A stretch of 64,000 bases of DNA from Shigella phage JK55. The stretch is taken from sequence record MK962758. One strand, given 5' to 3'. A program made the translations under genes and the position numbers. Every line of letters starts with the position of its first letter. Positions within the stretch are counted from its first letter, which is position 1. Positions 25,490-50,029 of this stretch are shown one piece after another. The notes beneath the pieces are model-generated. The model was given only the letters and a program-made list of their open reading frames with translations, was not told the origin of the DNA and did not search any database.

Positions 25490-25566
25490 CTCTGTTTAGC
25501 TCAGCTTGGTAGAGCGTTCCGTTTGGGGCGGTAAGGCCGGAGGTTCAAGTCCTCCAACAGAGACCA
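25490..25566 (+). tRNA. tRNA-Pro (anticodon TGG)
   Basis: Hand-folded cloverleaf: 7-bp acceptor CTCTGTT/AACAGAG, D-arm GCTC..GAGC, anticodon loop TTTGGGG, T-arm GGAGGTTCAAGTCCTCC, CCA encoded. Confidence 0.7.
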
Positions 25567-25573
25567 AATTAAT

Positions 25574-25651
25574 GTTCCAGTAGACAAAATGGTATAGTCA
25601 CCACTCTTTCAAAGTGGATATCTGAGGGTTCAAATCCCTTCTGGAACGCCA
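25574..25651 (+). tRNA. tRNA-Glu (anticodon TTC)
   Basis: Acceptor GTTCCAG/CTGGAAC, anticodon stem CCACT/AGTGG with loop CTTTCAA, T-arm GAGGGTTCAAATCCCTT, CCA encoded. Confidence 0.6.
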
Positions 25652-25738
25652 GTTTTGACAGAAGACCAATTACAGCAAACTGAATCTACTCATCTGACAC
25701 GAAATCGGACAAAGAAGATATTTGGTCTGGTCATTAAG
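25652..25738 (+). ncRNA. repeated structured element, copy a (ACAGAAGACCAATTACAGCAA ... TTGGTCTGG)
   Basis: Shares 5' motif and covarying closing stem with copies b, c, d. Confidence 0.4.
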
Positions 25739-25741
25739 AAT

Positions 25742-25818
25742 TGCGGGTATAGAGAAAGGGCGTCTCACATGTCTCATTAGCATGGTATCGGCAGGTTCGA
25801 CTCCTGCACCCGCCTCCA
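25742..25818 (+). tRNA. tRNA-Met or Ile2 (anticodon CAT)
   Basis: Anticodon loop CTCATTA, T-arm GCAGGTTCGACTCCTGC, acceptor about 6/7 bp, CCA encoded. Confidence 0.55.
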
Positions 25819-25819
25819 A

Positions 25820-25892
25820 ATTTACAGAAGACCGTTTACAGCAATACTTATTAAATTTTTAGCGGAAAAATTGAAAGATGCGGTCTGGTAAT
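25820..25892 (+). ncRNA. repeated structured element, copy b (ACAGAAGACCGTTTACAGCAA ... CGGTCTGG)
   Basis: As above; closing stem AGACCG/CGGTCT. Confidence 0.4.
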
Positions 25893-25901
25893 ACTAAACA
25901 T

Positions 25902-25975
25902 GGTTAGGAAGCACATAAGGTATGTGCGGTCGCCTGTTAAGCGAATGGCACAGGGTTCGAATCCCTGACTAACCG
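25902..25975 (+). tRNA. tRNA-Asn (anticodon GTT)
   Basis: D-arm GCAC..GTGC, anticodon loop CTGTTAA, T-arm CAGGGTTCGAATCCCTG; no CCA encoded. Confidence 0.55.
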
Positions 25976-25986
25976 CAAAATTTAAA

Positions 25987-26075
25987 TGTGTCGTTATCCC
26001 GTAGATGGTAGCGGTGGGGACTGTAAATCCCTTGTCATTGAGACTCGGTAGGTTCGACTCCTACACGGCACACCA
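25987..26075 (+). tRNA. tRNA-Tyr (anticodon GTA), long variable arm
   Basis: Anticodon loop CTGTAAA, about 15-nt variable arm, T-arm GTAGGTTCGACTCCTAC, CCA encoded. Confidence 0.6.
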
Positions 26076-26080
26076 ATAAA

Positions 26081-26158
26081 GGTTATGTAGTTTAATTTGG
26101 TTAAAATACTCCCCTGTCACGGGAGATGATGAGGGTTCAAATCCCTTCGTAACCGCCA
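26081..26158 (+). tRNA. tRNA-Asp (anticodon GTC)
   Basis: Anticodon stem CTCCC/GGGAG with loop CTGTCAC, T-arm GAGGGTTCAAATCCCTT, CCA encoded. Confidence 0.6.
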
Positions 26159-26216
26159 ATTTTGAGAGGGCTATTTAGCCCCTCCCTTAAAGAGTTCTTA
26201 CGAGTATTCTTTAAAG

Positions 26217-26296
26217 GAGTAGAAGACCAAATACAGCAAGAATGTATGATATTTTCAAGCCAATTCAATTTTGAAAAAATTTAAAACTTGGTCTGG
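26217..26296 (+). ncRNA. repeated structured element, copy c (AGAAGACCAAATACAGCAA ... TTGGTCTGG)
   Basis: As above; closing stem AGACCAA/TTGGTCT. Confidence 0.4.
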
Positions 26297-26306
26297 CTCA
26301 ACAAAT

Positions 26307-26450
26307 TTACAGAAGACCGTTTACAGCAAAACTTAAACAATCTATTTCTCGGTAAAGAAAAGGCGAAGGTTCGATTCCTTCACTCGGCAGAGGTCGAGTT
26401 GGTGTAATGGTAGCACTTAAGATGATAAACAACGGTCTGGTAATTATCTT
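26307..26450 (+). ncRNA. repeated structured element, copy d, expanded; contains tRNA-like T-arm (GAAGGTTCGATTCCTTC) and D-arm-like segment
   Basis: Closing stem AGACCGTT/AACGGTCT; internal T-loop motif and TGGTGTAATGGTAGCAC D-arm-like segment, but no complete cloverleaf found. Confidence 0.35.
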
Positions 26451-26585
26451 TGTAGATAAGTTATTAAGCTTACCTGTGAGTATGCGACCACAAAGGGTGA
26501 AAGGGTAAATTCTAGATTTAAACCCAAAAAGTCACATCGCTACAGACCTTAAGCAAGTCTGGGTAGCTTATCTACAAAGATAATT
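26441..26585 (+). repeat. 19-bp perfect inverted repeat (TAATTATCTTTGTAGATAAG / CTTATCTACAAAGATAATT) enclosing 105 bp
   Basis: Arms at 26441-26460 and 26566-26584; candidate RNase III-type processing stem or miniature inverted-repeat element. Confidence 0.6.
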
Positions 26586-26589
26586 TAAT

Positions 26590-26665
26590 GGAAGTGTAGC
26601 AGAATGGTGATGCGGCAGACTTTTAATCTGACAGGCGATGGGTTCGAATCCCTCCACTTCTACCA
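26590..26665 (+). tRNA. tRNA-Lys (anticodon TTT)
   Basis: Acceptor GGAAGTG/CACTTCT, anticodon loop CTTTTAA, T-loop TTCGAAT with weak T-stem, CCA encoded. Confidence 0.5.
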
Positions 26666-26669
26666 AAAT

Positions 26670-26746
26670 GGTTCAGTCGCAGATAAGGTAATGCAAGGGT
26701 CTCATAAGCCCTATGAATGTGGGTTCGAATCCCATCTGAACCTCCA
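26670..26746 (+). tRNA. tRNA-Met or Ile2 (anticodon CAT), second copy
   Basis: Acceptor GGTTCAG/CTGAACC, anticodon stem AGGGT/GCCCT loop CTCATAA, T-arm GTGGGTTCGAATCCCAT, CCA encoded. Confidence 0.6.
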
Positions 26747-26748
26747 AT

Positions 26749-26823
26749 TGTGGGTTAGCATAAATGGTAATGCAAACGGCTGATAACCGTTAGAAGAGGG
26801 TTCGATACCCTCACCTACAACCA
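26749..26823 (+). tRNA. tRNA-Ile (anticodon GAT)
   Basis: Anticodon stem AACGG/CCGTT loop CTGATAA, T-arm GAGGGTTCGATACCCTC, CCA encoded. Confidence 0.6.
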
Positions 26824-26838
26824 AATTCAATAAAGTTG

Positions 26839-26867
26839 TTGACATTGAGATGTGACTACTTTATAGT
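26839..26867 (+). promoter_or_regulatory. sigma70-like promoter inside tRNA cluster (TTGACA-17-TATAGT)
   Basis: -35 26839-26844, -10 26862-26867; about 200 nt of non-tRNA sequence follows before the next tRNA. Confidence 0.55.
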
Positions 26868-27070
26868 ACCCTTAGTTTTCGTTGCGTAGCGTCTATTTTG
26901 CAAATTTAAAATAAATGCAAACGACAATGTTTTTCTGGCAGTAGCTTGATAGGCTAAACACCAGTGAGGTCTTCCAATCCCTCATCAAAGAATTTGGCGT
27001 ACTCGCCCACGGTATGATTAATAAGGTGGGCATCTTTAAGGGCTTTCTAAGAGAGTCTTTAAAGATTAAT

Positions 27071-27147
27071 GCACCCTTAGTTCAACTGGACAGAGCAAAT
27101 GACTTCTAATCATTGAGTTACAGGTTCGAATCCTGTAGGGTGCGCCA
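27071..27147 (+). tRNA. tRNA-Arg (anticodon TCT)
   Basis: Acceptor GCACCCT/AGGGTGC, anticodon stem AATGA/TCATT loop CTTCTAA, T-arm ACAGGTTCGAATCCTGT, CCA encoded. Confidence 0.65.
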
Positions 27148-27289
27148 ATTAGTTAGCAGATTACTTAGACGACCTAAGCGGGTCTTCCTGTAGGGAGGTG
27201 GTCTGTATCTCATGTTTTCCAGAACATGTAAATAATCTGAGAAGGGGCTTTACAGTGTTGAGATAATACGGTAAGTTTCGAATTATAGT

Positions 27290-27372
27290 ATGGGACGATG
27301 TTAAGACTCTAAGGCATGAGCAACGGCCTCCAAAACCGTTTCAAAGGGGTTCAACTCCTCCGTCCCATGCCA
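27290..27372 (+). tRNA. atypical tRNA-like gene (possible anticodon CCA in an enlarged 9-nt loop; isotype unresolved)
   Basis: Perfect acceptor ATGGGAC/GTCCCAT, T-arm AGGGGTTCAACTCCTCC, CCA encoded, but 83 nt long with about 7 extra nt between acceptor and anticodon arm; stem AACGG/CCGTT encloses CCTCCAAAA. Confidence 0.35.
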
Positions 27373-27385
27373 AAGTCTTATTAGT

Positions 27386-27473
27386 GGTAGGTAGCGGCTA
27401 ATGGTAGCCAAACTGTCTTGAAAACAGTTGCCACTGTAGAGATACGGTGAGGGTTCGACTCCTTTACTTACCG
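27386..27473 (+). tRNA. tRNA-Ser (anticodon TGA), long variable arm
   Basis: Anticodon stem ACTGT/ACAGT loop CTTGAAA, long variable arm, T-arm GAGGGTTCGACTCCTTT; no CCA encoded. Confidence 0.55.
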
Positions 27474-27730
27474 CCTAATAAGATTTAAAGCCAAGCTTCA
27501 TTCGGATGTTGCTTTGGTATCCCTCGTGTATTGTCGTACACACTAATAAAGCACCTAGTAGGTGTCACGGAGAAGAGATAATATCAAGCTCTCCAAAGGT
27601 TCTAGTCACCGGATTAAACAAGACTATGCAAAGACCTTTTTAGGTCTTTTTAGAGGGCTTCTAAGGTTATTACAGCTTGTTGTGGAACCTTGTTGCTTAG
27701 GTTCTTAGAAGTTCTCTAAAAAGGTTTAAT

Positions 27731-27808
27731 GGGAGATTGACGGTAATTGGTAAACCTATCTCGCTTAGAACGAGATGTTTGAGGGTTCGAATCCCTTGTC
27801 TCCTACCA
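27731..27808 (+). tRNA. tRNA with anticodon TAG (Leu by code) but short variable arm
   Basis: Anticodon stem TCTCG/CGAGA loop CTTAGAA, T-arm GAGGGTTCGAATCCCTT, CCA encoded; class-I length. Confidence 0.45.
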
Positions 27809-27815
27809 AATTAAT

Positions 27816-27891
27816 GCAGGTGTAGCAAAATGGTTATGCGGCTGACTCTTAATCAGTAAGACGATGGGTTCAATTCCCTCCACCTGTACCA
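27816..27891 (+). tRNA. tRNA-Lys (anticodon CTT)
   Basis: Acceptor GCAGGTG/CACCTGT, anticodon stem GCTGA/TCAGT loop CTCTTAA, T-loop TTCAATT, CCA encoded; paralog of tRNA-Lys(TTT). Confidence 0.5.
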
Positions 27892-27897
27892 AACAAT

Positions 27898-27973
27898 GGG
27901 GTCATAGTTTATATGGTTAAAATTCGAGTTTTGCAAACTTGGGAACTGAGTTCAATTCTCAGTGACTCCACCA
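27898..27973 (+). tRNA. tRNA-Ala (anticodon TGC)
   Basis: Anticodon stem CGAGT/ACTTG loop TTTGCAA, T-arm CTGAGTTCAATTCTCAG, CCA encoded. Confidence 0.5.
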
Positions 27974-27979
27974 ATTAGT

Positions 27980-28054
27980 GCATCCATAGTTTAAACGGGA
28001 AAATTACAGTCTTCCAAACTGAGGTTGAGGGTTCGATTCCCTCTGGATGCTCCA
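27980..28054 (+). tRNA. tRNA-Gly (anticodon TCC)
   Basis: Perfect acceptor GCATCCA/TGGATGC, anticodon loop CTTCCAA, T-arm GAGGGTTCGATTCCCTC, CCA encoded. Confidence 0.6.
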
Positions 28055-28060
28055 AACAAT

Positions 28061-28137
28061 GCTGCTTTCGTATAATTGGCTATTACACATCCCTTGTAAG
28101 GATGGAAATGCAGGTTCGAGTCCTGTGAGCAGCACCA
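28061..28137 (+). tRNA. tRNA-Thr (anticodon TGT)
   Basis: Anticodon stem CATCC/GGATG loop CTTGTAA, T-arm GCAGGTTCGAGTCCTGT, CCA encoded. Confidence 0.65.
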
Positions 28138-28140
28138 ATT

Positions 28141-28232
28141 CAGAGGTCAAGTGAAAGACCGCTGGTGTCAACTGAAGACCGTAACAAATTCCACGGAGTT
28201 GAGTTAGCGGCACAACTTCAGACCTCTTTCAC
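28141..28232 (+). ncRNA. structured non-tRNA element between tRNA-Thr and tRNA-Val (nested inverted repeats)
   Basis: AGAGGTC...GACCTCT outer inverted repeat, CTGAAG...CTTCAG inner repeat, contains the GAAGACCGT motif shared with copies a-d; no T-loop motif. Confidence 0.35.
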
Positions 28233-28307
28233 ACTCGCTTAGTTTATATGGTAAAACATCACCCTTACAAGATGAAGAAAAAGGTTCAAGTCCTTTAGTG
28301 AGTACCA
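28233..28307 (+). tRNA. tRNA-Val (anticodon TAC)
   Basis: Acceptor ACTCGCT/AGTGAGT, anticodon loop CTTACAA, T-arm AAGGTTCAAGTCCTT, CCA encoded. Confidence 0.5.
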
Positions 28308-28308
28308 T

Positions 28309-28386
28309 GTTCCAGTATCCCAATTGGCAGAGGATGCAAGCTCAAACCTTGTATTAGTGACGGTTCGAATCCGTCTTGGAACACCA
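28309..28386 (+). tRNA. tRNA with anticodon CAA (Leu by code) but short variable arm
   Basis: Acceptor GTTCCAG/TTGGAAC, anticodon stem GCAAG/CTTGT loop CTCAAAC, T-arm GACGGTTCGAATCCGTC, CCA encoded. Confidence 0.45.
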
Positions 28387-28405
28387 ATTTTAAGAGGCTA
28401 TTTAG

Positions 28406-28963
28406 ATGAGATATTTGAAGTATGCTTCATGGATTTTCTTAGCTTTACTAGAACCATTTGCAGCAACCCTAGCAGTCATCTTAGCACCTTTCGTAGTTCC
28501 ATTCTACAGTGAGAAGAAAGGGCATCTACCTTTTGGATTCAGATGGATGGAGACCTATGACAACCCGATTGATGGTGATAAAGGCCACGTTGAGAGATGG
28601 GCTAAGATTAGAAAGATTGGCAAGCTCGGTGTTTATATGCAGAGAGTTGGATGGCTCTGGAGAAACAAAGCTTATAACTTCTCTTACCATGTATTAGGAA
28701 GAGATGTAAAAGATGTTACTAAGTGGAAAGGTAATATCAACGTAAGTTCTGACCCTGAAGATAATCAGACAGGTTATCTCCTAATGTGGAACAACAATGC
28801 TTGGGGATTATTCGCTTTTATTCCGTCAATTAAAATCTTTGGTAAACAGTTTTACTGGAGAATTTATGTTGGATGGAAACTAAAAAGTGTTGTCCCAGAA
28901 GAAAGAGCATTCTCAAGGGAAAGAGTTATGTTGGCATTCTTTATTCATCCACTGAGAAAGTAA
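28406..28963 (+). CDS. hypothetical membrane protein embedded in tRNA cluster
   Basis: N-terminal hydrophobic segments (IFLALLEPFAATLAVILAPFVVPF); AAGAGG RBS 9 nt upstream. Confidence 0.55.
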   Translation: MRYLKYASWIFLALLEPFAATLAVILAPFVVPFYSEKKGHLPFGFRWMETYDNPIDGDKGHVERWAKIRKIGKLGVYMQRVGWLWRNKAYNFSYHVLGRDVKDVTKWKGNINVSSDPEDNQTGYLLMWNNNAWGLFAFIPSIKIFGKQFYWRIYVGWKLKSVVPEERAFSRERVMLAFFIHPLRK

Positions 28964-28971
28964 AGATTTAA

Positions 28972-29047
28972 AGGGGATTAGTTTACAAGGTTAAAACCTC
29001 GGTCTTTGAAATCGAAGAAGTTGGTTCAATTCCAACATCCCCCGCCA
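28972..29047 (+). tRNA. tRNA-Gln (anticodon TTG)
   Basis: Anticodon stem TCGGT/ATCGA loop CTTTGAA, T-arm GTTGGTTCAATTCCAAC, CCA encoded. Confidence 0.55.
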
Positions 29048-29049
29048 AT

Positions 29050-29128
29050 GCTCCATTACTCCAATTGGCAGAGAGGCCAGACTTAAAATCTGTGTTATGT
29101 ATCGGTTCGAATCCGATATGGAGTACCA
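29050..29128 (+). tRNA. tRNA with anticodon TAA (Leu by code) but short variable arm
   Basis: Acceptor GCTCCAT/ATGGAGT, anticodon loop CTTAAAA, T-arm ATCGGTTCGAATCCGAT, CCA encoded; D-arm paralogous to the CAA tRNA. Confidence 0.45.
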
Positions 29129-29133
29129 AATTT

Positions 29134-29209
29134 AGCGGTATAGCATAACTGGCAATGCAGCAGTCTCTGAAGCTGTCTTATTAAGGTTCAAATCCTTATG
29201 CCGCTGCCA
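29134..29209 (+). tRNA. tRNA-Gln (anticodon CTG)
   Basis: Acceptor AGCGGTA/TGCCGCT, anticodon loop CTCTGAA, T-arm TAAGGTTCAAATCCTTA, CCA encoded. Confidence 0.5.
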
Positions 29210-29240
29210 CTTCTAAGGGTTCTTACGAGAGTCCTTAAAT

Positions 29241-29316
29241 GTGGCCTTATCATAAATGGTAATGACCCATGCTGTGAACATGGTCTATACGGGTTCAAAT
29301 CCCGTAGGTCACCCCA
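29241..29316 (+). tRNA. tRNA-His (anticodon GTG)
   Basis: Anticodon stem CCATG/CATGG loop CTGTGAA, T-arm ACGGGTTCAAATCCCGT, CCA encoded. Confidence 0.65.
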
Positions 29317-29322
29317 ATTTAT

Positions 29323-29398
29323 AGTCCAAGTAGCTTATATGGTTAAAGCGCGTGTCTGAAAAACATGAGAAGAGGGTTCGAATCCCACTGGACTACCA
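29323..29398 (+). tRNA. tRNA-Phe (anticodon GAA)
   Basis: Anticodon stem CGTGT/ACATG loop CTGAAAA, T-loop TTCGAAT, CCA encoded. Confidence 0.55.
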
Positions 29399-29416
29399 AT
29401 TTCAAAGGTGCTTAAT

Positions 29417-30149
29417 GAAAGAGATGACAGAACAAGGTAAGGAGATTTTTAATCTCTTAAAAACCGGTAAAGGGTTTTCTAACCCACTTATTACTGGTGC
29501 AGCAGTTCTCGGTGGAACCGTAGCTGCTTCTACATCACTTGTAAGCTCTATTAGTTCTGTAACAGACCCTACAATGCAGGAGAAACTTGTTGCTGCTGGA
29601 CTTACAACAGTCCTTCTAAACAGCTTTACAACAAGCCTTACAAGCACTACAGCAACTACTAAAACTCTGACAGACTACGGTCAAAAGTCTATTGATGAGT
29701 TTTCATCACGTATGCAGGTAGCAAAGGGGTATTCCAATGTTATGGGTGCAGCAGGAGAGCAAGTTGGTTGTACACCATTCAGTGGTATCATGGGTGTTGC
29801 TACAGAGTATGGTCAAAAAGCTATTAACATGATGAACAGTACACTAGATAGTGTTAATGGTGTGTTAAGTGACTTACAAGATGCTATTGATAAGGGTCTT
29901 GATACTGTTTCTGATTTAGCTAATCAGGCTGTTAGTAAGATTAATGAAGGTATTTCAAAGATTACAGCTTATGCAGATGAAGTTGTGCAGATGATTGAAG
30001 AAGAAGCTTCCCTTATTGCAGAGTACCTTAAAACGAATATCAATGGGTTCTTAGCAGGTATCTTACCAGACTGGTTTGATGATGCCTGTAAAACTGGTGT
30101 GATTGACACTATTGCAACACCAGAAATGAAGAGCGCATTACAGAAATAA
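29417..30149 (+). CDS. hypothetical protein (Ser/Thr/Ala-rich N-terminal region) embedded in tRNA cluster
   Basis: Start moved to ATG 29417 (AAAGGTG upstream) because the track start 29352 lies inside tRNA-Phe. Confidence 0.5.
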
Positions 30150-30150
30150 T

Positions 30151-30243
30151 GGAAGATTAACCCTAAAAGGTAAGGGAGCAGTTTGCTAAACTGCCAGTAG
30201 CTGAGAAATCGGTGTACCAGTTCAAGTCTGGTATCTTCCTCCA
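30151..30243 (+). tRNA. tRNA-Ser (anticodon GCT), long variable arm
   Basis: Perfect acceptor GGAAGAT/ATCTTCC, anticodon stem GCAGT/ACTGC loop TTGCTAA, about 20-nt variable arm, T-arm ACCAGTTCAAGTCTGGT, CCA encoded. Confidence 0.7.
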
Positions 30244-30247
30244 ATTT

Positions 30248-30323
30248 GAATCCGTGACAGAAATGGATATGTGCCTGTCTGCAAAACAGGTTTATAAGGG
30301 TTCGAGTCCCTTCGGATTCTCCA
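30248..30323 (+). tRNA. tRNA-Cys (anticodon GCA)
   Basis: Perfect acceptor GAATCCG/CGGATTC, anticodon stem CCTGT/ACAGG loop CTGCAAA, T-arm AAGGGTTCGAGTCCCTT, CCA encoded. Confidence 0.7.
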
Positions 30324-39499: not shown

Positions 39500-40852
39500 A
39501 TGTGGAATCCAATTGTTAATGTAGATATTACATTGAACACCGCAGGAACTACAAGAGAAGGTTTTGGTTTGCCACTATTCTTAGCTTCAACAGATAACTT
39601 TGAAGAAAGAGTGCGTGGTTACACTTCCTTAACTGAAGTTGCTGAAGATTTCGATGAGAGGTCTGCTGCATATAAGGCTGCTAAACAACTTTGGAGTCAG
39701 ACTCCTAAAGTAACTCAGCTTTATATTGGTAGACGTGCTATGCAGTACACTGTATCAATTCCTGATGCCGTTACCGAAAGTACAGACTACTCAATTACTG
39801 TAGCTGTTGGCGGTGGAATTTCTCAACCATACCAGTACACAGCACAAGATTCAGACACTGCTGAGGTAGTGTTGCAACAGTTTAAAACACAGATTGAAGC
39901 TGACCCAACAATCAAAGATAAGGTTTCTGTGAATGTAACTGGTAGCAATGGCTCTGCCACAATGATTATTACCAAAGCTGGTGATAATGACTTTGTGAAA
40001 GTAACAACCACAGCACAGACTGTATATATTGCAAGTACAACTGCTGATACAGCAGCAACTGCTCTGGCAGCTATCGAAGCTTACTCTACTGACTGGTATT
40101 TCATTGCAGCAGAAGACAGAACTCAACAGTTTGTCTTAGCAATGGCTTCTGAGATTCAGGCTCGTAAGAAAATCTTCTTTACGGCTAACTCTGATGTAAC
40201 AGCCCTACAAGGTACAGAATTAGCCAGTGCAAATGATGTTCCAGCACAGCTTGCTAAGAATATGTACACTCGTACAGTTTGCTTGTGGCATCACGCAGCA
40301 GCAGAAGATTACCCAGAGATGGCATACATTGCTTATGGTGCTCCATATGATGCAGGCTCAATTGCTTGGGGTAATGCTCAGCTAACTGGCGTAGCAGCTT
40401 CTCTACAACCATCTAATCAGAGACCTCTGACAAGTATTCAGAAGTCTGCTTTAGATGTACGTCACTGTAACTTTATTGACCTTGATGGTGGTGTTCCAGT
40501 GGTTCGTAGAGGGATTACTTCTGGTGGGGAATGGATTGATATCGTCCGTGGTGTTGACTGGTTAGAATCAGACCTGAAAACTTCTCTGAGAGACTTGCTA
40601 ATTAACCAGAAGGGTGGTAAGATTACTTATGATGATACTGGTATTACCCGTATTCGTCAAGTCATTGAAACCTCTCTGCAAAGAGCAGTCAACAGAAACT
40701 TCCTGTCATCTTACACAGTTAATGTTCCTAAAGCCTCTCAAGTTGCTTTAGCAGACAAGAAAGCACGTATCCTGAAAGATGTTACCTTCGCAGGTATCTT
40801 AGCAGGGGCTATCTTGGATGTTGACTTGAAAGGTACAGTGGCTTACGAATAA
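39500..40852 (+). CDS. tail sheath protein candidate
   Basis: 450-aa protein followed by a 148-aa tube-size protein, chaperone pair and tape measure (P2/Mu-type order). Confidence 0.5.
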   Translation: MWNPIVNVDITLNTAGTTREGFGLPLFLASTDNFEERVRGYTSLTEVAEDFDERSAAYKAAKQLWSQTPKVTQLYIGRRAMQYTVSIPDAVTESTDYSITVAVGGGISQPYQYTAQDSDTAEVVLQQFKTQIEADPTIKDKVSVNVTGSNGSATMIITKAGDNDFVKVTTTAQTVYIASTTADTAATALAAIEAYSTDWYFIAAEDRTQQFVLAMASEIQARKKIFFTANSDVTALQGTELASANDVPAQLAKNMYTRTVCLWHHAAAEDYPEMAYIAYGAPYDAGSIAWGNAQLTGVAASLQPSNQRPLTSIQKSALDVRHCNFIDLDGGVPVVRRGITSGGEWIDIVRGVDWLESDLKTSLRDLLINQKGGKITYDDTGITRIRQVIETSLQRAVNRNFLSSYTVNVPKASQVALADKKARILKDVTFAGILAGAILDVDLKGTVAYE

Positions 40853-40867
40853 TAGAGGTAAATTGGA

Positions 40868-41314
40868 ATGGCTATGTATCAGCAATATTCCCCTAAAGAC
40901 GTTGTATGTAGCTGGAACGGCATTGCTATTGAAGGCTTTGCTCCAGACTCATTCTTGCGTCTACAGAGAACATCACCACTTGTGACACCAGTTGTTGGTG
41001 CAGGTGGTCAGGTTGCTCTGACAAGAAATGCAGACAAGACAGGTACTATTGAGATTGAGTTAATGCAGACTTCTCTCTCTAACCAGATGCTTTCTGCAAT
41101 TCAAGCTAAACAAGACAATATGGAACTTGAAGAAGATATCTCTTCTAACTTCGTAATCTACGACCCATCAGGCTCTGTTCTGGCAACTGGTATTAACGCT
41201 TGGTTGCAGGAGTTACCGCAGATTGAACTTGGTCGTGACCAGAACTCTAAAACTTGGATTTTTGGTTGTGAGAAGTTAGACTACACTTCTACAATTCCAG
41301 CGTCAAGTGTTTAA
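40868..41314 (+). CDS. tail tube protein candidate
   Basis: 148 aa, immediately before chaperone genes; followed by terminator. Confidence 0.5.
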   Translation: MAMYQQYSPKDVVCSWNGIAIEGFAPDSFLRLQRTSPLVTPVVGAGGQVALTRNADKTGTIEIELMQTSLSNQMLSAIQAKQDNMELEEDISSNFVIYDPSGSVLATGINAWLQELPQIELGRDQNSKTWIFGCEKLDYTSTIPASSV

Positions 41315-41326
41315 TAAATCCTATAA

Positions 41327-41358
41327 GGGGGAGACTTTAAAAGGTCTTCCCCTTTTTT
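41327..41358 (+). terminator. rho-independent terminator after tube gene
   Basis: GGGGAGAC...GTCTTCCCC stem plus TTTTTT. Confidence 0.55.
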
Positions 41359-41387
41359 GTTTCTTTTAAAAGTATTAAGGAATCACA

Positions 41388-41786
41388 ATGAAAACAGAAT
41401 CTAGAGTAATTAATGGTAAGAAAGTAAATATCATCCTGCTTGGGGCAAGAGATGGTATTAAGATGTCTATGAAGTTGGGTAAAATTGTTGTTCCAACATT
41501 TGCACAGATGCTGTCAAGTCTTACGGATAAAGATAAGAAAGAAGCTCCAATGGTTCCATTTAAAGAGCTTGTTGAAGCTTGTTTTGACAGAATTGAAGAA
41601 ATTAACCTTGAAGAGATGGCAACCCTGTTATTTCAAGGGGCAACTGTTGATGACTTCCCACTTAATATTGATACGTACTTCCAAGCAAACTATGGTGAGT
41701 TCATTGATTACTTAGCATTTGCGCTGGAGGCAAACTTCGGAAGTTTTTTCGAAGCAAGCATTTTCAAAAGCCTAACTTCTCAGTAA
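41388..41786 (+). CDS. tail assembly chaperone (G/E-like)
   Basis: Position upstream of tape measure; slippery heptamer T_TTT_TTC at 41744-41750 with -1 frame open into the next gene. Confidence 0.6.
   Translation: MKTESRVINGKKVNIILLGARDGIKMSMKLGKIVVPTFAQMLSSLTDKDKKEAPMVPFKELVEACFDRIEEINLEEMATLLFQGATVDDFPLNIDTYFQANYGEFIDYLAFALEANFGSFFEASIFKSLTSQ
41744..41750 (+). promoter_or_regulatory. candidate -1 programmed ribosomal frameshift slippery site (T TTT TTC)
   Basis: Heptamer in the zero frame of the chaperone gene; -1 frame is stop-free from 41708 through the ATG at 41789. Confidence 0.5.
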
Positions 41787-41788
41787 AC

Positions 41789-42027
41789 ATGGGTAACACT
41801 CTACAGACACCACTAACTGATGCTGCTGTAGAGGCAACCTATGAAGAAGCAGACGAGATGAAATTTGTGCTTGCTATTTATGGTATGGAAGGGTGTAAAG
41901 AAACACTTGACCAACTCTTTGCTATGACATTCTCTGATTTATTATCATTGAGACAATTTCTTGAAATTCAGAGGTCGTATAAAGAGGAAATTGCTTACAA
42001 CGAACTTAGAAGAGCAGGAAAAATGTA

Positions 42028-42028
<1 letters not shown>
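41789..42028 (+). CDS. tail assembly chaperone extension (GT/E'-like)
   Basis: 79-aa ORF in -1 frame relative to upstream chaperone, just before tape measure. Confidence 0.5.

Positions 42029-50029
<8,001 letters not shown>

What the first reader, a model, noticed from the sequence alone, without database searches (positions are those of the whole stretch)
41708..41800. Conserved-type -1 frameshift signal in the tail assembly chaperone pair
T_TTT_TTC (41744-41750) lies in the zero frame near the end of the first chaperone gene, and the -1 frame is stop-free from 41708 through the second chaperone ORF. This matches the G/GT-type frameshift that produces a chaperone fusion upstream of tape measure genes, and supports the tail-module annotation.
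Basis: partly seen in the sequence, partly recalled or inferred. Interest (0 to 1): 0.4.

Follow-up and report, generated by a model that had tools for sequence, protein, structure and literature searches.

The report
Tail chaperone -1 frameshift site, confirmed
This Felix O1-like E. coli phage has the usual slippery sequence that lets some ribosomes slip back one base and make a longer tail-assembly chaperone; the site is real and strongly conserved, but it has already been described for this phage family.

Summary
The window is a Felixounavirus, and its chaperone region is 100% identical to Escherichia phage Andreotti. The tail chaperone gene (41388-41786, Pfam Phage_TAC_15) contains T_TTT_TTC at 41744-41750 in its own frame. 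The -1 frame is open from 41708 to 42028, ending at the tape measure start.

Slippage there would give a 213-aa fusion (24.3 kDa) beside the 132-aa product. One genome alone is weak evidence: the chance of any canonical heptamer in the overlap is about 9%. The comparative evidence is strong:
- GTTTTTTCG is invariant in every two-ORF relative examined, down to 26% protein identity.
- The Ser-Phe-Phe codons are fixed while other synonymous sites vary.
- The second ORF has no ribosome-binding site, and several relatives have no start codon for it.
- A Buttiauxella relative encodes the fusion as a separate in-frame gene and has lost the heptamer.

No downstream stem-loop or pseudoknot is supported. 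A GGAGG sits 13 nt upstream and may stimulate slippage, but only some lineages have it.

The frameshift is already annotated in phages Mushroom and Moogle and was described for 231 Andersonviridae in 2025. I found no experimental proof. It is ordinary and already known.

The parts
41388..41786 (+). Tail assembly chaperone gene (G-like, 'TAC-N'). It encodes 132 aa (14.9 kDa) and is the product of standard decoding, ending at TAA 41784-41786.
   Evidence: ORF list and translation. Pfam Phage_TAC_15 at 70.9 bits against a cutoff of 22, covering residues 9-124. phrog_1613 at 7e-49. SD-like AAGGA upstream, duplex dG -6.1. AlphaFold model pLDDT 78, with the last helix at residues 102-130.
41744..41750 (+). 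Slippery heptamer T_TTT_TTC (zero-frame codons 120-121, Phe-Phe). This is the proposed site of tandem -1 slippage of two tRNA-Phe.
   Evidence: Sequence. It is the only in-frame T_TTT_TTC in the crude ORF set drawn from the window. GTTTTTTCG is invariant in 9 divergent lineages, and the heptamer is present in 40 of 40 two-ORF loci scanned. The AGT TTT TTC codons are fixed while only 2 of 20 other invariant residues keep a single codon. U_UU.U_UU.C belongs to the efficient H_HH.U_UU.Y class in E. coli (PMC4066793).
41708..42028 (+). Open -1 reading frame. It covers the 79-nt overlap with G (41708-41786) plus the annotated 79-aa 'second chaperone' ORF (41789-42028), and encodes the T-like C-terminal extension.
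   Evidence: Translations. phrog_4963 at 2.8e-55. The ATG at 41789 has no SD: duplex dG is +0.7, weaker than all 66 reference genes. Relatives lack a start codon here.
41388..42028 (+). Predicted frameshift product GT, join(41388..41750,41750..42028). It is 213 aa and 24.3 kDa, with junction ...ANFGSFF|RSKHFQKPNFSVNMGNT...
   Evidence: Constructed; mass. It has the same length as the joined CDS in Mushroom (641 nt). It aligns across the junction with the in-frame 201-aa Buttiauxella gene (BLASTP 6e-13, residues 81-208). Phage CL1, which has T7, encodes this same fusion layout (junction ...ANFGSFFRSKHF...) as one 213-aa ORF that is 98.6% identical.
41726..41730 (+). Internal Shine-Dalgarno-like GGAGG, 13 nt upstream of the heptamer. 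It is a candidate 5' stimulator and is restricted to some lineages.
   Evidence: Sequence. Duplex with the anti-SD has dG -9.3, stronger than 90% of gene-start SDs in the window. Only 8 GGAGG occur inside the reference ORFs, so P is about 0.001 for this spacing. The 9-14 nt spacing rule is from PMC5009743. GAG becomes GAA in P778, SarahDanielle, phiEa21-4 and CR8.
42028..44241 (+). Tape measure protein gene (context). Its ATG overlaps the TAA of the -1 frame in the sequence TAATG.
   Evidence: Pfam TMP_3 and phrog_4036; sequence.
41325..41354 (+). Terminator-like hairpin plus T-run between the tube gene and the chaperone gene (context). It may lower transcription into the chaperone and tape measure genes.
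   Evidence: Consensus scan: 13 pairs, 6 of them GC, followed by a T-run. No function was tested.

Best explanation

Most ribosomes that start at ATG 41388 read through to TAA 41784-86 and make the 132-aa chaperone. A minority pause with tRNA-Phe(GAA) on UUU (P site, 41745-47) and on UUC (A site, 41748-50). Both tRNAs slip one base 5' and re-pair with UUU UUU (41744-49). Decoding then resumes at CGA 41750 and continues for 92 codons to TAA 42026-28.

The result is a 213-aa fusion: the complete chaperone domain plus a C-terminal T-like domain. By analogy with lambda, the shared N-terminal domain coats the tape measure protein, and the rare T extension recruits the tube protein so that the tail polymerises to the correct length.

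Shown here: the sequence anatomy, the family membership of the first gene, the conservation and codon fixation of the slip site, the lack of initiation signals for the second ORF, and the existence of a genetically fused homologue. Inferred: that slippage actually happens, that it is ribosomal, its efficiency, any stimulation by the upstream GGAGG, and the roles of the two proteins.
For: Anatomy.

Context and family: the order is sheath, tube, TAC, TAC, TMP; Phage_TAC_15 scores E=1.9e-19, and the domain ends at residue 124, just after the slip codons 120-121.

Conservation: T_TTT_TTC is kept in phase in window relatives at 97% to 26% protein identity, including Moogle, phiSUSP1, phiEa21-4, SarahDanielle, Wc4-1, P778, two metagenomic lineages, and the Vequintavirinae CR8 and W70. 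The only blastn-detectable DNA block shared with the Erwinia phages is 41733-41773.

Codon fixation: Ser-Phe-Phe is always AGT TTT TTC. The T at 41744 and the T at 41747 are not constrained by -1-frame coding if the shift occurs here. Elsewhere only 2 of 20 invariant residues keep one codon.

Bracketing: in L044 a -1-frame TAG abuts the T-run on its 5' side, and in P778 the overlap is only 40 nt. Between those limits T_TTT_TTC is the only canonical heptamer shared by all lineages.

The second ORF is not independently expressed: it has no SD; ATG is ATA in L021; and there is no start codon in phiEa21-4, Wc4-1 or L044.

Natural controls: Buttiauxella encodes the long form as a separate in-frame gene that is collinear with the predicted fusion across the junction (6e-13). 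Its short gene writes GSFF as GGC TCA TTC TTC, so there is no heptamer. CL1, with T7, encodes the fusion directly.

Motif competence: H_HH.U_UU.Y heptamers are among the most efficient in E. coli, and U_UU.U_UU.C is used by IS elements (PMC4066793).

Prior annotation: joined CDS in Mushroom and Moogle and published statements.
Against: No experimental evidence for the fusion protein in any member of this family was found.

No 3' stimulatory structure is supported. The downstream 80 nt fold has z = +0.80, RNAalifold predicts 0 pairs, and short stems are no more frequent than in shuffles.

The upstream GGAGG is absent from several lineages.

In this window an ATG lies 2 nt after the first gene's stop, so low-level termination-reinitiation giving a free 79-aa protein cannot be excluded. 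A T6 run could also allow rare RNA polymerase slippage, which would give the same protein.

All the lineages are homologous, so conservation counts one ancestral event that has been maintained, not independent origins. The single-sequence AlphaFold model of the fusion was unusable (pLDDT 33).
Confidence: 0.86

Rival explanations
1. RNA polymerase slippage. The polymerase adds one extra U on the T6 run, so a minority of mRNAs encode the fusion in a single frame and ribosomes decode them normally.
For: A homopolymer run is present, and one extra T gives this fusion as a single in-frame ORF, as the CL1 record with T7 shows. A weak hairpin (41724-41740) followed by the T-run was flagged as terminator-like. 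This loosely resembles hairpin-assisted slippage at T5C5 (PMC5009743).
Against: Efficient bacterial slippage is documented for runs of 9 A or T, and short motifs need a strong GC hairpin directly adjacent. Here the hairpin has 6 pairs, 2 of them G-U, and shows no covariation beyond shuffles. The run is exactly T6 in every two-ORF lineage and never longer. It is always in X_XXY_YYZ phase, which matters to ribosomes but not to polymerase. T7 and T5 variants occur in 0 IMG/VR contigs against 23 for T6.
Confidence: 0.05
2. There are two separate proteins and no fusion. The 79-aa ORF is translated on its own from ATG 41789 by termination-reinitiation after the first gene's stop, and the heptamer is incidental.
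For: In this window an ATG lies 2 nt after TAA 41784-86. Most GenBank records annotate two separate CDS.
Against: There is no SD: duplex dG is +0.7, weaker than all 66 reference genes. The ATG is ATA in L021 and absent in phiEa21-4, Wc4-1 and L044, yet the -1 frame stays open back to the heptamer in all of them. The -1-frame linker FFRSKHFQKP lies upstream of that ATG but is conserved at protein level, and it matches the linker of the in-frame Buttiauxella fusion. The heptamer codons are fixed.
Confidence: 0.04
3. A -1 frameshift does occur, but mainly at a different place in the overlap. A candidate is the U_UUC tetramer at 41762-41765 (ATT TTC), reached by single-tRNA slippage.
For: U_UU.C is the second most shift-prone tetramer in E. 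coli (PMC4066793). CATTTTCAAAA is conserved in many Ounavirinae.
Against: Tetramers are barely shifty without a stimulator and about 10-fold weaker than the best heptamer even with one. This tetramer is absent in Wc4-1, L044, L045, CR8 and W70, all of which keep the heptamer.
Confidence: 0.03
4. The heptamer sits there by chance and nothing is recoded. The second ORF would be a decaying or non-functional remnant.
For: About 9% of 26-codon stretches in this AT-rich genome would contain some canonical heptamer.
Against: The second ORF is conserved as protein down to about 26% identity. The frame relation and the heptamer are invariant, and codon choice is fixed.
Confidence: 0.01

Closest known systems
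Frameshifted tape measure chaperone of Felix O1-like phages (Mushroom KP143762, Moogle NC_027293, Michonne, Mijalis), and the 'GTTTTT' site reported for 231 Andersonviridae and for Vandenendeviridae (PMC12846349)
   Same: It is the same gene, the same position and the same sequence. Mushroom is 97.7% identical over 41388-42028 and carries a 641-nt joined CDS. Moogle keeps GGAAGTTTTTTCGAGGCAAGC. The published motif GTTTTT lies within the invariant GTTTTTTCG found here.
   Different: Nothing substantive differs. The closest record, Andreotti MN850610, and most others annotate two separate CDS rather than a joined one. This analysis adds the exact phase (T_TTT_TTC), the bracketing stop codons, the fused-gene control and the lineage-restricted GGAGG.
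Bacteriophage lambda gpG/gpGT (Levin 1993; Xu, Hendrix & Duda 2004, 2013, 2014, as summarised in PMC5009743)
   Same: Two overlapping ORFs lie between the major tail gene and the tape measure gene. The second ORF is in the -1 frame. [quoted passage not shown] The expected outcome is a low-level fusion whose N-terminal part binds the tape measure and whose extension binds the tail tube subunit.
   Different: Lambda is a siphovirus, its heptamer is G_GGA_AAG (own knowledge), and its chaperone belongs to a different sequence family. Here the phage is a contractile-tail myovirus with T_TTT_TTC and Pfam Phage_TAC_15. The roles of the two products are inferred here, not shown.
Phage P2 gpE / gpE+E' (Christie et al. 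2002; recalled from memory, not checked here)
   Same: It is a myovirus tail chaperone pair upstream of the tape measure gene, with a -1 frameshift on a T-rich heptamer (recalled as T_TTT_TTG).
   Different: No detectable sequence relationship was tested, and the last base of the heptamer differs. P2's frameshift was shown experimentally; this one has not been.
Short and long chaperones encoded as two separate genes (some T4-like phages, Vladimirov et al. 2022 as described in PMC10885494; Buttiauxella noackiae locus L043 found here)
   Same: The same two products are made: a short chaperone, and a long form made of a chaperone domain plus an extension. The Buttiauxella long form aligns with the predicted fusion across the junction.
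   Different: There is no recoding. The long form has its own start codon and its own diverged copy of the chaperone domain, and the slippery heptamer is absent.
E. coli dnaX and IS3-family -1 frameshift cassettes
   Same: They have a heptamer plus an internal SD-like element 9-14 nt upstream. The window has GGAGG with a 13-nt spacer.
   Different: dnaX and many IS elements also use a 3' stem-loop or pseudoknot and reach high efficiency. No 3' structure is supported here, and the SD-like element is not conserved across the family.

Membership tests
Lambda G/GT-type tail assembly chaperone with programmed -1 frameshift (Xu, Hendrix & Duda 2004) | Two adjacent ORFs lie between the major tail (tube) gene and the tape measure gene. 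| tested here: met
   Tube 40868-41314, ORFs 41388-41786 and 41789-42028, tape measure 42028-44241.
Lambda G/GT-type tail assembly chaperone with programmed -1 frameshift (Xu, Hendrix & Duda 2004) | The second ORF is in the -1 frame relative to the first, and that frame is open back into the 3' end of the first ORF. | tested here: met
   The -1 frame is open from 41708 to 42028, giving a 79-nt overlap. The +1 frame overlaps by only 11 nt.
Lambda G/GT-type tail assembly chaperone with programmed -1 frameshift (Xu, Hendrix & Duda 2004) | A slippery heptamer X_XXY_YYZ lies in the zero frame inside the overlap. | tested here: met
   T_TTT_TTC at 41744-41750 is the only canonical heptamer in the overlap.
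Lambda G/GT-type tail assembly chaperone with programmed -1 frameshift (Xu, Hendrix & Duda 2004) | The slip site and the frame arrangement are conserved in divergent relatives. | tested here: met
   40 of 40 two-ORF loci keep them, as do 9 or more divergent lineages including Vequintavirinae. Codon choice at the site is fixed.
Lambda G/GT-type tail assembly chaperone with programmed -1 frameshift (Xu, Hendrix & Duda 2004) | The second ORF lacks its own translation initiation signals. | tested here: met
   No SD (dG +0.7). The start codon is missing or mutated in several relatives. An ATG is present in this window, so the test rests on the SD result and on the comparison.
Lambda G/GT-type tail assembly chaperone with programmed -1 frameshift (Xu, Hendrix & Duda 2004) | The fusion protein is actually made, at a low fixed ratio to the short form. 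Both are needed for tail assembly and both are absent from virions. | not testable with these tools
   This needs a western blot or mass spectrometry plus genetics. No such data were found in the literature search.
Pfam Phage_TAC_15 (PF21822) | The HMM score is above the gathering threshold across the whole domain. | tested here: met
   [not shown]
dnaX/IS-type -1 frameshift cassette (5' SD plus heptamer plus 3' structure) | An internal SD-like sequence lies 9-14 nt 5' of the heptamer. | tested here: inconclusive
   It is present in the window: GGAGG, 13-nt spacer, dG -9.3, positional P about 0.001. It is lost through GAG to GAA in four lineages that keep the heptamer.
dnaX/IS-type -1 frameshift cassette (5' SD plus heptamer plus 3' structure) | A stable stem-loop or pseudoknot starts 5-9 nt 3' of the heptamer. 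| tested here: not met
   z = +0.80 for 41751-41830. The consensus fold of 8 lineages has 0 pairs. Short stems occur in 9 of 11 lineages against about 6 expected from shuffles. Pseudoknots were not modelled explicitly.
Programmed transcriptional slippage | A run of about 9 or more A or T, or a short run directly preceded by a strong GC-rich nascent-RNA hairpin. | tested here: not met
   The run is exactly T6. The upstream hairpin has 6 pairs including 2 G-U and shows no covariation. The criterion is from PMC5009743.

The most novel reading that the evidence does not exclude
The long chaperone form is produced wholly or partly by RNA polymerase inserting one extra U at the T6 run, helped by the weak nascent hairpin at 41724-41740, rather than by ribosomal slippage. 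That would make this deeply conserved phage 'frameshift' a case of hairpin-assisted transcriptional recoding on an unusually short run.
Probability: 0.05. Interest if true: 0.45.

Novelty: already known. Interest (0 to 1): 0.12.

Why it matters
Practically, it affects annotation. This phage and most of its roughly 300 sequenced relatives list two separate chaperone genes, where the evidence supports one gene plus a joined frameshift product: join(41388..41750,41750..42028). It also confirms the tail-module assignment.

Biologically, it adds little beyond the published picture. Three points are useful. The exact phase T_TTT_TTC is maintained across Ounavirinae and Vequintavirinae. A chromosomal Buttiauxella relative has replaced recoding with a separate fused gene and has lost the heptamer. 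A strong internal GGAGG at the correct distance exists only in some genera, which might tune the ratio of the two products.

Felix O1-like phages are used for Salmonella and E. coli biocontrol, so correct structural-gene annotation has some applied value.

Tried and rejected
1. Downstream stimulatory structure. Single-sequence folds of 41751-41830 and 41700-41860, RNAalifold on 8 divergent lineages, and enumeration of stems starting 3-10 nt after the heptamer with shuffles gave nothing above background.

2. Two upstream or overlapping hairpins (41724-41740, and 41735-41754, which contains the slip site). Pair counts on a 9-lineage alignment matched the shuffles. I treat both as by-products of the GAG..AAC TTC..GAA coding sequence.

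3. The conserved 23 nt after the heptamer (CGAAGCAAGCATTTTCAAAAGCC) as an RNA signal. This is better explained by both frames coding for conserved peptide (FFEASIFK and FFRSKHFQKP).

4. +1 or -2 shifting. The +1 frame closes after 2 codons.

5. A search of 5.8 billion proteins with the fusion, to find annotated fused proteins, returned only 124-136-aa short forms.

6. Sequence search of the PDB found no homologue.

8. Literature searches for the exact heptamer string in phage papers found nothing relevant. Vladimirov et al. 2022 is not held in the library.

Full report
**What the window is.** The region 39500-44241 is 97.8% identical to Escherichia phage bumzen, and about 300 Felix O1-like phage records match it. 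The chaperone region 41388-42028 is 100% identical to Escherichia phage Andreotti, MN850610.1. Current taxonomy places these phages in Felixounavirus, Ounavirinae, Andersonviridae. The local gene order is:
- tail sheath, 39500-40852 (phrog_205)
- tube, 40868-41314
- chaperone, 41388-41786 (132 aa; Pfam Phage_TAC_15, E=1.9e-19; phrog_1613)
- a 79-aa ORF, 41789-42028 (phrog_4963, 'tail assembly chaperone')
- tape measure, 42028-44241 (TMP_3; phrog_4036)
- Dit-like and baseplate genes

**Check of the observation.** The first gene's codons start at positions divisible by 3. The sequence reads GGA AGT TTT TTC GAA, so T_TTT_TTC occupies 41744-41750 in X_XXY_YYZ phase. The -1 frame has TGA at 41705-07 and is then open to TAA at 42026-28, which overlaps the tape measure ATG in the sequence TAATG. 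The +1 frame is closed.

Slippage at the heptamer would give a 213-aa, 24.3-kDa protein with junction ...ANFGSFF|RSKHFQKPNFSVNMGNT.... The standard product is 14.9 kDa.

**Is it more than chance?** Within this genome alone, only moderately. I used a crude set of 66 ORFs from the window (ATG-started, at least 100 aa, non-overlapping). Canonical in-frame heptamers occur at 60 of its 15,783 codon positions, so a 26-codon overlap has a 9.4% chance of holding one. For the E. coli high-efficiency class the chance is 2.1%. In-frame T_TTT_TTC occurs exactly once in that ORF set, here. It is also the only one of 21 Phe-Phe dipeptides written this way.

**Comparative evidence.** This is what decides the case.
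- All 40 fetched loci with the two-ORF layout have in-frame T_TTT_TTC.
- GTTTTTTCG is invariant across nine divergent lineages: Felixounavirus, phiSUSP1, an unnamed IMG/VR lineage, Moogle, phiEa21-4, Hafnia phage SarahDanielle, Pectobacterium phage Wc4-1, Yersinia phage P778 and Cronobacter phage CR8.
- It also holds in two further metagenomic lineages and in the Vequintavirinae phage W70, where protein identity to the window is only 26-29%.
- The only DNA block that blastn still detects between the window and the Erwinia phages is 41733-41773.
- Among eight Ounavirinae-like lineages, 2 of 20 invariant residues upstream keep a single codon, whereas Ser-Phe-Phe is always AGT TTT TTC. The T at 41744 and the T at 41747 are not needed for -1-frame coding if the shift happens here, so their fixation points to selection on slipperiness itself.
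- Two relatives bracket the site. In L044 a -1-frame TAG directly abuts the T-run (GGT AGT TTT TTC). In P778 the whole overlap is only 40 nt.

**The second ORF is not an independent gene.**
- Its ATG in the window has no Shine-Dalgarno complementarity. The duplex dG is +0.7 kcal/mol, weaker than all 66 reference genes.
- In one Felixounavirus contig the ATG is ATA.
- phiEa21-4, Wc4-1 and L044 have no start codon there at all, yet the frame stays open back to the heptamer.
- The peptide encoded between the heptamer and that ATG (FFRSKHFQKP...) is conserved.

**Two natural controls.**
- In a Buttiauxella noackiae chromosome, a Phage_TAC_15 gene is followed by a separate, in-frame 201-aa gene with its own diverged chaperone domain plus a T-like extension. 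That gene aligns with the predicted window fusion across the junction (residues 81-208, E=6e-13). The short gene there writes GSFF as GGC TCA TTC TTC, so it has no heptamer. The same two-gene solution is reported for some T4-like phages.
- The GenBank record of phage CL1 has T7 instead of T6 and therefore encodes the fusion as one 213-aa ORF, 98.6% identical to the predicted one. IMG/VR has 23 contigs with T6 in this context and none with T5 or T7. CL1 is therefore either a homopolymer sequencing error or a rare mutant.

**Stimulators.** None is supported:
- The 80 nt after the heptamer fold no better than shuffles (z = +0.80).
- RNAalifold on eight lineages predicts no pairs.
- Short stems starting 3-10 nt downstream occur in 9 of 11 lineages, against about 6 expected.
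- A hairpin that contains the slip site, and a weak one just upstream, show no covariation.

Upstream, GGAGG at 41726-41730 lies 13 nt before the heptamer, inside the 9-14 nt range reported for -1 stimulation (PMC5009743). It pairs with the anti-SD at -9.3 kcal/mol, stronger than 90% of real gene starts here. Only 8 GGAGG occur inside the reference ORFs, so P is about 0.001 for this placement, calculated post hoc. However, GAG is GAA in P778, SarahDanielle, phiEa21-4 and CR8. At most it is a lineage-specific enhancer.

The heptamer itself belongs to the H_HH.U_UU.Y class, among the most efficient in E. coli. It shifts at more than 0.1% without a stimulator, and IS elements use it (PMC4066793). 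The phage also carries its own tRNA-Phe(GAA).

**Mechanism and rivals.** The best explanation is tandem -1 slippage of two tRNA-Phe on U_UUU_UUC. This would give a minor G-T-like fusion alongside the major short chaperone, with roles inferred from lambda. My confidence is about 0.86. The rivals are:
- Transcriptional slippage (0.05). Documented efficient cases use runs of 9, or a strong GC hairpin next to a short run. Here the run is exactly T6, always in ribosomal phase, and the hairpin is weak.
- Independent reinitiation of the 79-aa ORF (0.04).
- A shift at the downstream U_UUC tetramer (0.03). That tetramer is absent in five lineages that keep the heptamer.
- Pure chance (0.01).

**What is already known.** GenBank records of Salmonella phage Mushroom and Citrobacter phage Moogle annotate a two-piece joined CDS over exactly this region. 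The Moogle, Michonne and Mijalis genome announcements mention the frameshift. [quoted passage not shown] I found no experimental demonstration.

**Verdict.** The finding is correct, ordinary and already described. Its practical value is to correct the annotation.

Noticed in passing
L043 3001-3986 (Buttiauxella noackiae JPRU01000001.1, 1.88-Mb contig): A chromosomal tail-like cluster has a short Phage_TAC_15 gene followed by a separate in-frame 201-aa gene (diverged chaperone domain plus T-like extension), then tape measure and Dit-like genes. The slippery heptamer is absent. The upstream genes match no PHROG or Pfam family, so the nature of the element (prophage or tailocin) is unknown.
   Followed up: partly
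L038 (Escherichia phage CL1, OK040806.1), slip site: The record has T7 instead of T6, so the two chaperone ORFs are fused into one annotated 213-aa gene and no short form would be made. This is either a homopolymer sequencing error or a viable fused-only mutant. IMG/VR holds no T7 or T5 variants.
   Followed up: partly
window 41325-41354: A strong terminator-like hairpin (13 pairs) with a T-run lies between the tube gene and the chaperone gene. It could reduce transcription into the chaperone and tape measure genes.
   Followed up: no
window 25490-30323: A cluster of 25 tRNA genes includes tRNA-Phe(GAA) at 29323-29398, the tRNA that decodes both slip-site codons. Whether phage-supplied tRNA-Phe affects slippage is unknown.
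   Followed up: no
window ~42314-42320 (inside the tape measure gene): The only in-frame A_AAA_AAG in the crude ORF set drawn from the window is here, and it is the most efficient E. coli heptamer. The -1 frame stops after 5 codons, so slippage would only truncate the tape measure. It is probably incidental.
   Followed up: no
L021 (IMGVR_UViG_3300045988_004167), start of the second ORF: The ATG of the 79-aa ORF is ATA in this otherwise near-identical Felixounavirus contig.
   Followed up: yes
L003 (LR597663.1 VpaE1_ev78) and GU169904.1 'Staphylococcus phage SA1': These look like public-record problems. In VpaE1_ev78 the product names look shifted: the chaperone is called 'Hc1 head closure protein', the tape measure 'Tail sheath protein' and the sheath 'Ad1 adapter'. 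A 147-kb 'Staphylococcus' phage record carries a chaperone region 97% identical to Felix O1-like phages, which suggests a mixed assembly.
   Followed up: no
[not shown]
   Followed up: no
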